Part shown: piece by piece, positions 4,196 to 51,155 of the stretch
How positions within the stretch are numbered: the stretch's first letter is position 1
How the letters are laid out: the number at the start of each line of letters is the position of its first letter
DNA from: Eledone cirrhosa
Lineage: Eukaryota
Reading direction: 5' to 3'
Length of the DNA stretch: 64,000 bases
NCBI GenBank assembly: GCA_964016885.1
Contig: OZ024741.1
Span: 161,944,001-162,008,000 of the forward strand
Program-made: the position numbers and the translations under genes
The notes under the pieces: generated by a model
Database searches by the model: none
What the model was told of the DNA's origin: nothing
Seen by the model: only the letters and a program-made list of their open reading frames with translations

Positions 4196-5207
4196 CATCA
4201 TCATCATTTAACATCCATTTTTCCACACTAGCATAGGTTATATGAGTTGTCCTGTTGTGAGACAAGCCAGATAAAATGACTGCCTTGCTCATACAGAACT
4301 TTTTCTAGCTTAGTTTCTATGGCTTGATGCCCTTCTTAACACCAACCACATATACAGTGTGGACTGGGTGCTTTTTATCGTGGCACCAAAATAACCACTT
4401 TACAGTGTGGACTAGGCACTTTTCGTTGTGGCACCAAAACGACCACTTTACAGTGTGGACTGGCCGCTTTTTGTTGTGATACCAAAGCAACCACTTTACA
4501 GTGTGAACCATGGGATGGGGTGGGGTGTTATGACATGGGTGAAGGATGGAATTTTAGGATCTGGGTGAAGCTTGGAGTGGTATGACATGGGTGGAGTGTT
4601 AGGACATGGGAGGTGTATGGGAGGGGGAGTGGTGTATTCTAGAGACCACGAGATGTATGCTTCAACCTGTGCTCATGGGAAGGTGAGTTTTCTGCAGTAC
4701 CGCATGATACCAGAGATCATGATCCTATATTATTGCCTTTGTGTGAGGTCAGTTTTTATCACCTCATCTCAAGCCTTCTTAGGTCTTTCTCTTCCATAGC
4801 TACCATCAACGTTAAGCACCCTGCACCTCTTTATACAGCTGTCATCCTTAATACACATCACATGTCCATACCACCACAAACTCCTCTCCTGCACACTGCA
4901 TCTGATCCCTCTTGTATCCAGTTTTTCTTTCAGTTCATTTACACTTTGCCGTTCATATATCAGTATGTGATATGTCGGAGCATGCAAGCTTCATTTCTTT
5001 CCATTATTTGTAGGTCTTCTGTATGCGACGCACAGGTCCTGCTACCATGTTACATTGCTGTTTGTATACAAGCATCATACAATCTGCCCTTTATTTTGAG
5101 GGAATAACCTTTTGTAGTTAACAGTGGTTGTAGCTCCCTGAACTTTTTCTATCCCATTTTCGCTCTGGTAACTGTACTTTCAGAACACCCACTTCCACTG
5201 CTAATTC
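4196..5207 (-). mobile_element. 5'-truncated RTE LINE (3' ORF end, 3'UTR, (ATG)n tail)
   Basis: ORF 4769-4987 ERQSVNELKEKL..WYGHVM; (cat)n tail at about 4196-4207; short tandem repeats in the 3'UTR at 4340-4505. Confidence 0.9.
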
Positions 5208-11211: not shown

Positions 11212-11877
11212 ATTATAAATATATAAATTATAAATATATAAATTAGTATTGGTGCTTCAACATAGCGCTATACTCATATATGTACATGTTATATATTAAA
11301 TAATATACAGGATGTTTATAAAAAACATTTGACGCCCTTTGCTATGAATTTTTATGGTTACGACCACCGTTGCACATCCTTAGTCTAAGCAAAAACAAGG
11401 GGAAGTAATCGACAATGTTTCTCACTTGTTGCCAGTTGTCAAGACTACATATCCACCTAGTTTCCACTGAGACAAAAATAAGCTAGAATCTTATAGATTT
11501 CTCACTTATGTATATGAGCTGATGAAGCTCATTTGCATACGGAGTGGTAGTTGGCATGGCTTAAATTAAAAATTAGTATTGTTGATAGCGTTATATACAT
11601 ATATGTCTTAAATTAAAAATTAGTAGTGTTGATAGCGTTATATACATATATGTACGTGTTGTAAATCGAATATATATATATATATATATATGTTGATTTA
11701 AAACTGCACTATTCACAAGTGTTTTTTAACCTTCATATCATGTCTTCCTGTTTTATCTGATGAAAACACAAATATTATTGCATGATGATATTTGTTTTTG
11801 AAATGCGCATAATAAAATACATGGAACTCTTTTAACCATCTTTTGTTCTTATATATTATATATATATATATATATAT

Positions 11878-23633: not shown

Positions 23634-25690
23634 ACACAACAACACTATCCCCATTATCACTACTCCAACCCTCTACTCCAACTACTATTTAAACCACAAC
23701 AACACTATCCCCATTATCACTACTCCAACCCTCTACTCCAACTACTATTTAAACCACAACAACACTATCCCCATTATCACTACTCCAACCCTCTACTCCA
23801 ACTACTATTTAAACCACAACAACACTATCACCATTATCACTACTCCAACCCTCTACTCCAACTACTATTTAAACCACAACAACACTATCCCCATTATCAC
23901 TACTCCAACCCTCTACTCCAACTACTATTTAAACCACAACAACACTATCCCCATTATCACTACTCCAACCCTCTACTCCAACTACTATTTAAACCACAAC
24001 AACACTATCACCATTATCACTACTCCAACCCTCTACTCCAACTACTATTTAAACCACAACAACACTATCCCCATTATCACTACTCCAACCCTCTACTCCA
24101 ACTACTATTTAAACCACAACAACACTATCCCCATTATCACTACTCCAACCCTCTACTCCAACTACTATTTAAACCACAACAACACTATCCCCATTATCAC
24201 TACTCCAACCCTCTACTCCAACTACTATTTAAACCACAACAACACTATCACCATTATCACTACTCCAACCCTCTACTCCAACTACTATTTAAACCACAAC
24301 AACACTATCCCCATTATCACTACTCCAACCCTCTACTCCAACTACTATTTAAACCACAACAACACTATCACCATTATCACTACTCCAACCCTCTACTCCA
24401 ACTACTATTTAAACCACAACAACACTATCACCATTATCACTACTCCAACCCTCTACTCCAACTACTATTTAAACCACAACAACACTATCACCATTATCAC
24501 TACTCCAACCCTCTACTCCAACTACTATTTAAACCACAACAACACTATCCCCATTATCACTACTCCAACCCTCTACTCCAACTACTATTTAAACCACAAC
24601 AACACTATCCCCATTATCACTACTCCAACCCTCTACTCCAACTACTATTTAAACCACAACAACACTATCACCATTATCACTACTCCAACCCTCTACTCCA
24701 ACTACTATTTAAACCACAACAACACTATCCCCATTATCACTACTCCAACCCTCTACTCCAACTACTATTTAAACCACAACAACACTATCACCATTATCAC
24801 TACTCCAACCCTCTACTCCAACTACTATTTAAACCACAACAACACTATCCCCATTATCACTACTCCAACCCTCTACTCCAACTACTATTTAAACCACAAC
24901 AACACTATCCCCATTATCACTACTCCAACCCTCTACTCCAACTACTATTTAAACCACAACAACACTATCACCATTATCACTACTTCAACCCTCTACTCCA
25001 ACTACTATTTAAACCACAACAACACTATCCCCATTATCACTACTCCAACCCTCTACTCCAACTACTATTTAAACCACAACAACACTATCACCATTATCAC
25101 TACTCCAACCCTCTACTACAACTACTATTTAAACCACAACAACACTATCCCCATTATCACTACTCCAACCCTCTACTCCAACTACTATTTAAACCACAAC
25201 AACACTATCACCATTATCACTACTCCAACCCTCTACTACAACTACTATTTAAACCACAACAACACTATCCCCATTATCACTACTCCAACCCTCTACTCCA
25301 ACTACTATTTAAACCACAACAACACTATCACCATTATCACTACTTCAACCCTCTACTCCAACTACTATTTAAACCACAACAACACTATCCCCATTATCAC
25401 TACTCCAACCCTCTACTCCAACTACTATTTAAACCACAACAACACTATCACCATTATCACTACTCCAACCCTCTACTACAACTACTATTTAAACCACATC
25501 AACACTATCACCATTATCACTACTCCAACCCTCTACTCCAACTACAATTTAAACCACATCAACACTATCACCATTATCACTACTCCAACTACTATTTAAA
25601 CCACATCAACACTATCACCTTTATCACTACTCCAACCCTCTACTCCAACTACAATTTAAACCACATCAACACTATCACCTTTATCAACCA
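23634..25690. repeat. 60-bp minisatellite: 32 full units plus about 2.5 degenerate units
   Basis: Unit aacactatc(c/a)ccattatcactactccaaccctctactccaactactatttaaaccacaac; no G on the plus strand; flanked by (aac)/(act)-rich low-complexity DNA. Confidence 0.99.
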
Positions 25691-36460: not shown

Positions 36461-37559
36461 TCTCCTTGTGTTGGAGGATATGTATGTACACAAATACAGA
36501 AGCACATGCAACATCTACACACAGAAGAGCATAATAGAATTGTCTTTACAAGATAGGTTTTGGAGAAAGGAAGGTAGTGGCTTGCTTTTGTTCACTTGGT
36601 ATTTGAAAAACGAAATTGAAGGATTGTTCTAAAAGTCATCTCTTTTAGAAGACTAAACGCCAAAATTCAATTCTCAGAGACAAAAAATTCTTATGAGAAG
36701 AATAACCATCTCAAATTGCTTAATTATGTTTTGGTGTTTAGTCTTCCAAAATAGATGGCTTTTAGAACAATCCTTCAATTTCGTTTTTCAAATATCAAGT
36801 GAACAAAAGCAATCCACTAGAAGACCCCCCCCCCCCACCACCACCACTAAAGACAAAGAATCTCATTTGAAGGAGACACCAGGGAACATTTTATCTTGGC
36901 ACTAGTGCTAGGGAGCTTGTCATGTCTTTGACACAATTGAAAAGTTTTCCCAACTCTTTGTTTAGCAAGTTTACTCCAGTTGGATGCCCTTCCTATCACT
37001 AACCACTTTAGTGTGAGACTAGAGATTGTTGTGTCCTTGACACAACTGTTGAGTCCCTCTCAACTCTCTTTTGGCATGGTTTCTGCAGTTAGATACACTT
37101 CCTATCATCAATAGAATTCATTTAAATAATTACAACTTATTTGCATATTTTCAGTCAACAGTATCAATCATATATCCATTAAATTATGATGGCTTTCTTC
37201 TACCTTCTATCTTCGGACTGCTATTGGGATTTGCGCTTTGTTGTTCATGTCCAAATACATTTATGTTGGTAAATATAGATAAATAAGTAGCTATAGATCG
37301 AGAGACAGATGTAAATAAATAAATAGCTATAGATCGACACACAATCTTTTTAAGTTTCTGAAAACACAAACACATCCTTTCTGCAACCCCCTCTCGTATA
37401 GTAGATAGATAGATAGATAGGTTTATGTTGTTTTTTTTAATTTGATCCGATCTCCCATATATATATATAGATATATATGTATGAATATATGCATGTCTGT
37501 ATGTATGAATATATGTTGAGGGCAAAAACAAACCAGTGTTTAATTTTTAATGCAGACTT

Positions 37560-38339: not shown

Positions 38340-38650
38340 GGAAAAAATGAAACGAAATTTCATTTCCCACTCTTAGTACGGCCGTTACTTAAATATAACT
38401 ATGTACACGTACATACGTATATGTATACAGACGTACAGTAGTATGTATATATATATACATACATGCACACACATATATATGTACGTATGGATTCACCGAA
38501 CATTTATTATAATGCTCGGTGTGTTTGTAAACAAACATCCCGTATTAAGCCGTAGTGTCCAGCAATCATCGCTGCTCGTTTGTTCAACACTGACACAGGA
38601 ACGCTGTACTAGTTTCAAGCTTATTAGCTATCGTCAGCAACGTATACCTT
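37560..38650. promoter_or_regulatory. CpG-rich unique region: candidate, possibly bidirectional, promoter with first exons
   Basis: CpG excess by eye in non-TE DNA; CGCCATTT (YY1-like, 38247), TACGTCA (CRE-like, 38268), ACTTCCTG (ETS-like, 37578); GTGAGT donors on the minus strand at 37576 and the plus strand at 38007. Confidence 0.5.
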
Positions 38651-38702
38651 CCTGCCAGATATATACATACTACTGTACCTCTGTATACATATATGTATGT
38701 AC

Positions 38703-50259: not shown

Positions 50260-50430
50260 TCTTATATATATATATATAGAGATAGATAGAGATAGAGATA
50301 TAGATAGATATATATAGATAGATATAGATATAGATAGATATAGGTAGATATAGATATATATATAGATGATAGATATAGATAGATATAGATATAGATATAG
50401 ATATAGATAGATATAGATAGATATATATAT
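50260..50430. repeat. (TAGATA)n/(TA)n microsatellite
   Basis: Direct reading. Confidence 0.95.
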
Positions 50431-50439
50431 AGTATAAGA

Positions 50440-50709
50440 ATAAAGGAACAAAGAATCAGTGTTGCATCATAGCATATTTAATAACATATTACATATGTTT
50501 CACTGTCGATCAGCTCGAGGAACGATCTATTATTGATCGAACTTGACTCTGGAATCGTAAGATCCTGAGATATCCATATCTGAGGATCTTTCAATTCCAG
50601 AGTCAGGTTCGATCAATAATAGATCTCTCCTCGAACTGATCAACAGTGGAACATATGTAATATGTTATTAAATATGCTATGATGCAAAACTGATTCTTTG
50701 TTCCTTTAT
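50440..50709. repeat. 270-bp palindrome (134-bp arms, 2-nt centre), possibly an inverted Penelope-like terminal repeat
   Basis: Arms 50440-50573 and 50576-50709 differ at about 10 positions by manual alignment. Confidence 0.95.
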
Positions 50710-50883
50710 ACTATTAATACTCTGCCTCTGCTCTGCACCTGGCATACCGCCTACGGACACAATTATCTTGCACCTCTACACCTGTGTGTATATATATAAC
50801 CCATGCTAGCGTGGAAGATGGACGTTAGACGATGATGATGATGATATATATATATATATATATATCAAGGAAACAACACATCA

Positions 50884-51155
50884 ATTCTCAGACCGGGTGA
50901 TGTGTTGTTTCCTTGAGCAAGACACTTTATTTCACATTGCTCCAGTTTACTCAGCTGTAGAAATGAGATGATAGGGACTGTGGTCCATATCATTCCACTG
51001 CAAAGTGGTCGTGGAGGTGCCACGGCATAAAAGCACTCACTGTAAATGAGGTTGGTGTTAGGAAGGGCATCCAGCTGTAGAAATCAAGCCAGAATCAGTT
51101 CCCGTCCCACCCTTGCAAGCAGGGAAAAGTGGACGTAAAATGATGATGATGATGA
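50884..51155 (+). mobile_element. SINE family A, 5'-truncated with a fold-back junction
   Basis: Matches 29368-29693; 50865-50883 is the reverse complement of 50898-50916. Confidence 0.93.

What the first reader, a model, noticed from the sequence alone, without database searches (positions are those of the whole stretch)
50440..50797. 270-bp palindrome whose arms carry complementary-damaged hammerhead-like cores
Seen: 134-bp arms about 93% identical around a 2-nt centre, in (TAGA)/(TA) repeats, with about 90 bp of unique tail on one side. The right arm reads catat-CTGAGGA-(61 nt, with a nested tcaggttcga/tcgaactga stem)-GGAA-CATATG-TA-atatg. That is the order stem I, CUGANGA, GAAA-like, palindromic stem III, GUA, stem I. 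The left arm read on the minus strand has a correct GAAA but CTCAGGA. Known: Penelope-like elements and retrozymes carry type I hammerheads with palindromic stem III, and Penelope-like elements often have inverted terminal repeats. Inference: a non-coding ribozyme-bearing retroelement with an unusually long stem II. Caveat: stem II lacks the canonical closing pair. If transcribed, this would also be a long dsRNA.
Basis: partly seen in the sequence, partly recalled or inferred. Interest (0 to 1): 0.72.

Follow-up and report, generated by a model that had tools for sequence, protein, structure and literature searches.

The report
Long-armed hammerhead of Penelope retrotransposon end
The palindrome is the decayed end of a Penelope-like jumping gene joined head-to-head to an inverted copy of itself, a known layout, but its family carries a predicted self-cutting hammerhead RNA whose second arm (about 60 bases) is more than twice as long as in its published relatives.

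Summary
The palindrome is real (124 of 134 bases pair). It is one copy of a dispersed repeat in a 3.0-Gb, probably octopus, genome. It is the 5'-truncated 3' end of a Penelope-like retrotransposon, likely Hydra clade, plus an inverted duplicate, inserted in (TA)n. In 31 of 40 loci picked for the reverse transcriptase, this motif or a sister form lies beside the ORF; several are direct repeats around 4.8-5.7-kb units. So it is not a separate non-coding element.

The hammerhead reading holds for the family: 569 exact intact-core matches (control 0), free variation at N7, and compensatory changes across sister subfamilies in stem I, basal stem II and the stem III palindrome. The two core changes here (A13G, G5C) are private decay and cannot complement each other.

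New are the 57-63-nt stem II (12-26 nt in published Hydra elements; no Rfam hit), drifted cores in sister subfamilies, and a tail on exactly one end in 23 of 27 inverted pairs, never both. Cleavage and transcription are untested. Unreviewed notes of this scan report the same class on other DNA.

The parts
50263..50436 (.). (TA)/(TAGA) microsatellite, left target flank
   Evidence: family copies sit in (TA)n
50430..50574 (-). Inverted 5'-truncated duplicate of the element's 3' end, short form without tail
   Evidence: (I10)
50485..50574 (-). Hammerhead motif of the left arm; G5 changed to C (position 50567), stem I first base changed
   Evidence: model hit 50483-50582, 105 bits (model built from these copies)
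50574..50575 (.). Inversion junction; both arms are truncated at the 5' edge of stem I. Its position differs from copy to copy in the family
50575..50664 (+). Hammerhead motif of the right arm: stem I 50575-79/50660-64, CTGAGGA 50580-86, GGAA 50648-51 (A13 changed to G at 50649), stem III palindrome ACATATGT 50651-58, predicted cut site after 50659
50587..50647 (+). 61-nt stem II domain, a long bulged hairpin; basal helix supported by compensatory changes across subfamilies, distal part less so
50665..50716 (+). Conserved segment between ribozyme and the short 3' end of the family
50717..50783 (+). Tail (optional 3' extension); homologous to the stretch that ends about 45-55 nt before the ORF start codon in full-length relatives
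50784..50798 (.). (TG)/(TA) run, right target flank

Best explanation
The palindrome is a decayed, 5'-truncated insertion of a Penelope-like retrotransposon (likely Hydra clade) made of two copies of the element's 3' end joined head-to-head, and each copy holds a damaged version of a family hammerhead with a 61-nt stem II that is predicted to cut only as a dimer. Shown: the family, the link to an RT plus GIY-YIG ORF, the repeat layout, (TA)n targets, one-sided tails and covariation. Inferred mechanism of insertion: the element's protein nicks both strands of a (TA)n target and primes reverse transcription twice inside the repeat RNA, once at the far site (giving the tail) and once at the near site (no tail). 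Both cDNAs stopped early, here at the 5' edge of stem I, and were joined, which gives a palindrome with a tail on one side. Inferred role of the ribozyme: slow or protein-assisted processing of tandem transcripts through an 8-bp intermolecular stem III. Most genomic copies were made from RNA not cut at this site. This copy is probably inactive: G5 or A13 is lost, and any read-through RNA would fold as one 134-bp hairpin.
For: Family: 3,588 candidates, 40 scored. The inversion point differs per copy. Endonuclease-selected loci: 18 of 38 carry pieces of the motif, 8 downstream on the same strand and 14 upstream inverted, none the other way round (two pairs look like segmental duplicates). Endonuclease and ribozyme identities co-vary, Mantel r=0.52, p=0.001, n=11. 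RT-selected loci: 31 of 40 carry the motif; downstream hits 25 same strand and 1 opposite, upstream 12 direct and 10 inverted. Direct-repeat units are 4,809-5,698 nt. ORF motifs DKT, YRDD, CxCX5C, YIG and RWR. The tail lies just ahead of the ORF start. The tail is on one end in 23 of 27 inverted pairs, on none in 4, on both in 0; chi-square p=1e-4. Core positions are 61-67 of 67 conserved while N7 varies G47/C12/A6/T2. Across subfamilies 17 of 32 pairs show double changes, covariation score 0.299 against 0.161, 0 of 500 shuffles. Stem III stays an 8-nt palindrome in three versions: ACATATGT, ACAATTGT, ACGCGCGT. One copy's dimer minimum-energy fold is the double hammerhead (L180). In vitro precedent: both strands nicked and extended, two internal start sites that define the tail, protein-assisted ribozyme (PMC11167929).
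Against: No cleavage or expression data. Within the finding's own family covariation is no better than shuffles and RNAalifold gave no consensus fold. The cross-subfamily alignment used 23 hand-picked copies with intact cores, and related rows can beat shuffles without structure. The hammerhead fold is not the monomer energy minimum in any of the 23. Distal stem II has two registers. The ORFs linked to the finding's own subfamily (L082, L124) are broken pieces, and the Pfam GIY-YIG hit is below its cut-off (20.5 versus 22.6 bits). Clade placement rests on motifs read by eye, with no tree against published Hydra proteins. PMC11167929 reports no difference in start site between the two strands in vitro, so the strict one-tail pattern is not explained by that paper.
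Confidence: 0.88

Rival explanations
1. An independent non-autonomous, retrozyme-like element that borrows a Penelope enzyme and spreads as a short hammerhead RNA.
For: Most copies are short and lack any ORF: in 89 copies sampled by an arm motif, most alignments end within about 120 nt upstream of the cut site (partly limited by reference length). Several longer copies merge upstream into (TG)n-like sequence. Retrozymes are argued to derive from pLTRs (bioRxiv 10.64898/2026.07.22.740005, part 1 of 5 read).
Against: No fixed 5' end and no tandem arrays were seen. The same motif forms the direct and inverted repeats of ORF-bearing units. Subfamily identity tracks the adjacent endonuclease. The (TG)n-rich stretch is part of a long 3' UTR.
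Confidence: 0.06
2. The element is Penelope-like as described, but the long-stem motif no longer works as a ribozyme; it is kept as a structured binding site or is drifting.
For: Sister subfamilies carry U4C, U4C plus A6U, and one-base-longer cores; U4C and an insertion after A6 are reported to lower activity (PMC3088659 passages). About 80 of 89 sampled copies read through the cut site. In the finding's family an alternative hairpin around GUA competes with stem I. Ribozyme mutants did not affect insertion in vitro in another PLE.
Against: C3, G5, G8, A9, GAAA and the cut triplet are kept across the 23 picked copies of subfamilies whose stems have changed by compensation, and stem III stays palindromic (rows were picked for intact cores). 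That is the pattern expected of selection on the catalytic fold.
Confidence: 0.2
3. A foldback or MITE-type DNA transposon, or a palindrome artefact, with a chance hammerhead look.
For: Long inverted repeat in TA sequence; TA is also a Tc1/mariner target (recalled).
Against: The centre differs in every copy, 62 of 89 sampled copies have no inverted partner within 1.5 kb, the tail is one-sided, and the repeat flanks RT ORFs. The arms differ at 10 sites, which argues against a read-folding artefact.
Confidence: 0.01

Closest known systems
Hydra clade of Penelope-like elements, including Hydra-1_Obim of Octopus bimaculoides (Craig et al. 2021, PMC8557442; passages, section 11, supplement part 2 and supplement searches seen)
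   Same: Single ORF with RT and C-terminal GIY-YIG, DKT, CxCX5C linker, (TA)n targets, hammerhead near the 3' end with palindromic stem III and often T...T at the base of stem II, inverted 5'-truncated copy, tail at one end.
   Different: Stem II domain 57-63 nt against 12-26 nt counted from File S2. Unit 4.8-5.7 kb against under 3 kb. RWR in place of RWK. Tail about 70-85 nt against the 30-40 bp given for PLEs. The Hydra-1_Obim ribozyme is a different sequence; five motifs of this family gave no match in the supplement text (line breaks could hide a match).
Minimal type I hammerheads of metazoan PLEs (Cervera and de la Pena 2014, PMC4209133; parts 1-2 of 4 read)
   Same: Short stem I, palindromic stem III/loop 3, predicted dimeric activity, pairs on opposite strands 100-700 bp apart from truncated PLEs.
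   Different: Their helix II is 7-8 bp with a conserved G10.1-C11.1 pair; here it is a 60-nt bulged hairpin and the 10.1-11.1 pair varies.
PAc, Poseidon element of Anolis carolinensis (Frangieh et al. 2024, PMC11167929; parts 1-2 of 4 read)
   Same: Two discrete 3' ends separated by the tail; tail belongs to the start of the next unit; AT-rich targets; unprocessed RNA is the main template.
   Different: Other clade. Its ORF starts inside the ribozyme and its start sites lie in the ORF; here the tail ends about 50 nt before the ATG.
Long-loop hammerheads of Selaginella PLE-X1 elements (PMC8557442 File S2)
   Same: About 48-54 nt between the two core boxes, so a long stem II domain in a PLE has precedent.
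   Different: Plant Chlamys-related, endonuclease-less, rDNA-targeted; a 4-9 bp stem with a long loop; no covariation data given in the table.
Non-LTR retrozymes (bioRxiv 10.64898/2026.07.22.740005, part 1 of 5 read)
   Same: Type I hammerhead, PLE-related.
   Different: Tandem, ORF-free monomers; this family is dispersed and truncated from ORF-bearing units.

Membership tests
Type I hammerhead ribozyme | Core CUGANGA ... GAAA ... UH in order, N7 free | tested here: met
   Family level: 61-67 of 67 per core position, N7 variable; 569 exact matches, control 0. This copy has A13G and G5C.
Type I hammerhead ribozyme | Stems I, II, III with compensatory changes | tested here: met
   17 of 32 pairs across 23 picked copies, 0/500 shuffles; not seen inside the single family.
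Type I hammerhead ribozyme | Site-specific self-cleavage | not testable with these tools
   Needs an in vitro or end-mapping assay; genomic 5' ends near the cut site were inconclusive.
Rfam hammerhead families | Score above gathering threshold | tested here: not met
   No hammerhead hit at E<=10 around the finding; no Rfam hit in 8 loci of different subfamilies.
Penelope-like elements (EN+) | Single ORF with RT and GIY-YIG linked to the repeat | tested here: met
   31 of 40 RT loci; 861-aa open frame in a sister subfamily; broken RT and EN pieces upstream of the finding's own subfamily motif in L124, EN piece in L082.
Penelope-like elements (EN+) | pLTRs, direct or inverted, 5' truncation, tail at one end | tested here: met
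Hydra clade | DKT in place of DKG; CxCX5C linker; CxxC and CxH around the conserved E/N instead of CCHH | tested here: met
   L243: ADKTGN, CNCKKRAEC, CRLC, CRH (the last two read by eye), against section 11 of PMC8557442.
Hydra clade | N-terminal RWK motif | tested here: inconclusive
   RWR or RWH in the copies read; no exact RWK.
Hydra clade | (TA)n insertion | tested here: met
Hydra clade | Generally under 3 kb with a canonical short hammerhead (descriptive, not diagnostic) | tested here: not met
   Units 4.8-5.7 kb; stem II 57-63 nt.
Hydra clade | RT phylogeny with published Hydra proteins | not tested
Non-LTR retrozyme | Tandem ORF-free monomers each with a hammerhead | tested here: not met
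   Dispersed, variably truncated, ORF-linked.
TIR MITE | Fixed ends, symmetric TIRs, fixed TSD | tested here: not met
   Variable centre, 62 of 89 copies without inverted partner, one-sided tail.

The most novel reading that the evidence does not exclude
An octopus lineage of Penelope-like elements has evolved a distinct hammerhead subclass whose conserved 60-nt stem II is a docking module for the element's own RT-endonuclease, turning the ribozyme into a protein-gated dimer switch that tolerates core changes (U4C, A6U, extra N7), and the strict one-tail rule of its palindromes records a dimeric enzyme priming the two target strands from two fixed, staggered RNA sites.
Probability: 0.3. Interest if true: 0.68.

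Novelty: new variant of a known kind. Interest (0 to 1): 0.42.

Why it matters
The single locus is ordinary: a dead transposon end. The family is of interest for three reasons. (1) At least 1,800 intact-core motifs in one genome (569 plus 1,264) belong to a long-stem-II hammerhead class that Rfam missed wherever it was tested here. Published core-only searches with a spacer of 7-17 nt would also miss it, so ribozyme censuses of mollusc genomes are probably too low. (2) Sister subfamilies give a natural series of compensated stems, three stem III palindromes and several core variants, a ready panel for the open question of what hammerheads do in Penelope-like elements. (3) The tail on exactly one end of inverted pairs is a countable genomic footprint of the still unresolved insertion mechanism.

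Tried and rejected
Rfam at E<=10 around the finding gave only sub-threshold hairpin (miRNA-type) matches.

Covariation inside the finding's own family, 67 of 87 extracted copies, was at shuffle level. The 20 left out were mostly copies with indels, deletions or junction-replaced 5' ends. RNAalifold on the 67 returned no structure.

Naiad origin was considered because Naiad_Ovul is marked HHR_half_core. Rejected: the linked ORFs have a C-terminal endonuclease and Hydra-type motifs.

The RT ORF right after the copy in L055/L081 looked like a link but follows a (TA)n run and is probably a separate insertion; it was not used as evidence.

A peak of 5' ends at the cut site was looked for. Nine of 89 copies start between -8 and +4, about 5 would be expected from the local density, and most abut (TA)n, which mimics the sequence there: inconclusive. 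The first version of that mapping was spoiled by microsatellites in the references; only its partner and tail counts are used.

Sequencing runs: no RNA holder listed. Contigs of three runs of one sample laid mainly other family copies and none spanned the palindrome; no conclusion drawn.

Pfam found nothing for four RT/EN pieces. The protein database search gave 18 relatives at 30-52% identity, only one with an informative name.

Complementation between the two damaged arms was rejected on structural grounds.

Six literature searches listed no paper on long-stem-II hammerheads in cephalopod PLEs. Subscription papers, Repbase and Dfam were not searchable, and the O. vulgaris repeat paper PMC13282606 was seen only as passages (no 'hammerhead' or 'Hydra' in its main text; supplement not read).

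Full report
Observation. The arms 50440-50573 and 50576-50709 pair at 124 of 134 positions without gaps around a CC centre. The right arm has A13 changed to G (50649); the left arm, read on the minus strand, has G5 changed to C (50567). The flanks are (TA)/(TAGA) and (TG)/(TA) runs. The whole region folds as one hairpin of about -196 kcal/mol. It is the only such site in the 64-kb window.

Host. The genome has 3.0 Gb in 1,796 contigs. I take it to be an octopus from recalled SINE sequences and one weak named protein relative. This is inference.

Family. A genome search gave 3,588 candidates, 40 scored. Among 39 examined loci the copies sit in (TA)n and share the right-hand part, but the point of inversion differs from copy to copy. 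That is the pattern of 5' truncation with inversion, not of a fixed-end transposon. The exact pattern stem I, CTGANGA, 61 nt, GAAACATATGTA, stem I has 569 matches against 0 for the control. A sister pattern with the ACAATTGT palindrome has 1,264 against 3 (a few listed matches are unrelated short hammerheads or overlaps). An arm motif has 865 exact matches. These are lower bounds.

Link to an autonomous element. Walking upstream led to L082, where an inverted arm, a GIY-YIG ORF piece, a 3' UTR, the ribozyme and the tail lie between two (TA)n runs. L121 shows the same layout with the tail on the inverted side. Of 38 loci selected for the endonuclease, 18 carry pieces of the motif: 8 downstream on the same strand, 14 upstream inverted, none otherwise (two pairs look duplicated). 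Endonuclease and ribozyme identities co-vary (r=0.52, Mantel p=0.001, 11 loci). Of 40 loci selected for the RT (the best-scoring of 150 matches plus ones with long open frames), 31 carry the motif or a sister form. Downstream hits are 25 on the same strand and 1 opposite; upstream hits are 12 direct and 10 inverted. Six loci have direct repeats 4,809-5,698 nt apart. In these the tail runs straight on towards the ORF, and the window's tail aligns to the stretch ending 43-57 nt before the ATG. The ORF has DKT, YRDD, CxCX5C, YIG and RWR, close to the Hydra clade description in PMC8557442 section 11. The well-preserved ORFs belong to sister subfamilies; those next to the finding's own subfamily are broken pieces at 38-61% identity to the 861-aa frame. 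I file it as a Penelope-like element, and as likely Hydra clade on motifs alone.

Is it a hammerhead? In 67 family copies the eleven core positions are kept in 61-67 rows, while N7 varies (G47, C12, A6, T2). Inside the family covariation does not exceed shuffles, as expected for decaying copies of a few masters. I therefore picked 23 copies with intact cores from 12 of 18 clusters among 79 distinct motifs (six singleton clusters left out as decayed or unrelated) and aligned them without structure. Seventeen of 32 pairs then show changes on both sides: 5 of 6 in stem I, 10 of 17 in stem II, none of 5 in the distal hairpin, and 2 of 4 in the stem III palindrome. The covariation score is 0.299 against 0.161 in shuffles (0 of 500) and at most 0.114 for slid controls. 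Relatedness inflates such numbers. The clearest single sign is that stem III is an 8-nt palindrome in three versions, ACATATGT, ACAATTGT and ACGCGCGT. RNAalifold recovers the basal stem II but a different register in its middle. The hammerhead fold is not the monomer minimum in any of the 23 copies; dimers are 5-10 kcal/mol more stable than two monomers in the five tested, and one folds as the double hammerhead. This fits the dimer model for PLE hammerheads (PMC4209133). The T...T at the base of stem II is common in published Hydra hammerheads and U-U there is described as tolerated (PMC3088659 passage).

What differs from print. The stem II domain is 57-63 nt against 12-26 nt that I count in the Hydra rows of File S2, though two Selaginella PLE-X1 motifs reach about 48-54 nt. 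Rfam gave no hammerhead hit here or in 8 loci. Sister subfamilies have CCGANGA, CCGTCGA and eight-base CTGAAAGA/CTGAAGGA cores. Six literature searches listed no description of this class; closed papers and repeat databases were out of reach.

How the palindrome arose. In 89 copies taken in genome order by an arm motif, 27 have an inverted partner within 1.5 kb. The tail is on exactly one end in 23, on neither in 4 and on both in none; independence predicts 13.2, 8.9 and 4.9 (p=1e-4). That the tail is often at one end is in print. The Anolis PLE protein nicks and extends both strands and starts at two internal RNA sites that bound the tail. My inference is two priming events, one per target strand, from the far and near site, with early stops and head-to-head joining. 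Because reverse transcription starts downstream of the cut site, every copy that holds both ribozyme and arm came from RNA not cut there, which is about 80 of the 89. A test for 5' ends at the cut site was inconclusive.

This copy. The arms differ by 7.5%, or 3.9% each if identical at insertion. With the scale in PMC13282606 (distance 0.09 for 25 million years; passage) that is roughly 10 million years, a rough figure that assumes the same rate and no conversion. The right arm has 6 and the left 4 private changes in 91 ribozyme positions. About half of sampled copies fail a strict core pattern (23 of 48 pass), so damage in both arms is unremarkable. The two motifs are on opposite strands, and in a double hammerhead both conserved boxes come from one strand, so they cannot complement (established knowledge). 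No RNA run was listed, so dsRNA formation is open.

Earlier notes. After forming this reading I found unreviewed notes of this scan on other DNA, in this and other genomes, that reach the same class and the same reference. They are not independent support. One of them also suggests the long arm as a handle for the element's enzyme, which I list as the novel case and did not test.

Verdict. The locus is an ordinary dead end of a Penelope-like element. The family's long-armed hammerhead is a new variant of a known kind, well supported by sequence comparison and untested for activity. Interest 0.42.

Noticed in passing
L155-L174 (e.g. G000:C2:166338340-166338522); L243, L244, L249-L251: Sister subfamilies with GUC cut site, ACGCGCGT stem III and variant cores CCGACGA (U4C) or CCGTCGA (U4C plus A6U); one has 2,161 search candidates.
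   Followed up: partly
L238-L240, L242, L252-L256, L259: Subfamily with an eight-base first core box (CTGAAAGA, CTGAAGGA), one base longer than CUGANGA, in elements with direct repeats 94-96% alike in two copies.
   Followed up: partly
L243:2014-4596 (G000:C3, near 151602500-151605100): 861-aa open frame with RT and GIY-YIG from start codon to stop, in a sister subfamily; suggests fairly recent activity of that lineage.
   Followed up: partly
L121, about 4590-4680 (3' UTR): A second, different hammerhead-like motif with a roughly 48-nt stem II followed by (TA)n, absent from sister copies; probably the end of another PLE family inserted here.
   Followed up: no
window 11749-11820 (+); similar text in L057, L058, L068, L126 flanks: CTGATGA-36 nt-GAAA motif with an 8-bp stem I in a repeat that recurs beside (TA)n, sometimes as inverted pairs; possibly another hammerhead-bearing family.
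   Followed up: no
window 38630-38680 (-): Short canonical-looking hammerhead (CTGACGA, 14-nt stem II, GAAACTAGTA) next to a (TA)n run.
   Followed up: no
window 36575-36672 / 36722-36819: Another inverted repeat, 98-nt arms 91% complementary with a 49-nt spacer, no hammerhead core seen.
   Followed up: no
window 23635-25589: 60-bp tandem array, 32.6 copies, 98% identical, strongly C/A-skewed.
   Followed up: no
window 50865-50916: Small hairpin at the end of a common SINE-like repeat, apparently formed by a local inversion.
   Followed up: no
L009/L010 (G000:C4:28970656-28971481): Two family palindromes arranged as a larger inverted duplication around a (TA)n run.
   Followed up: no
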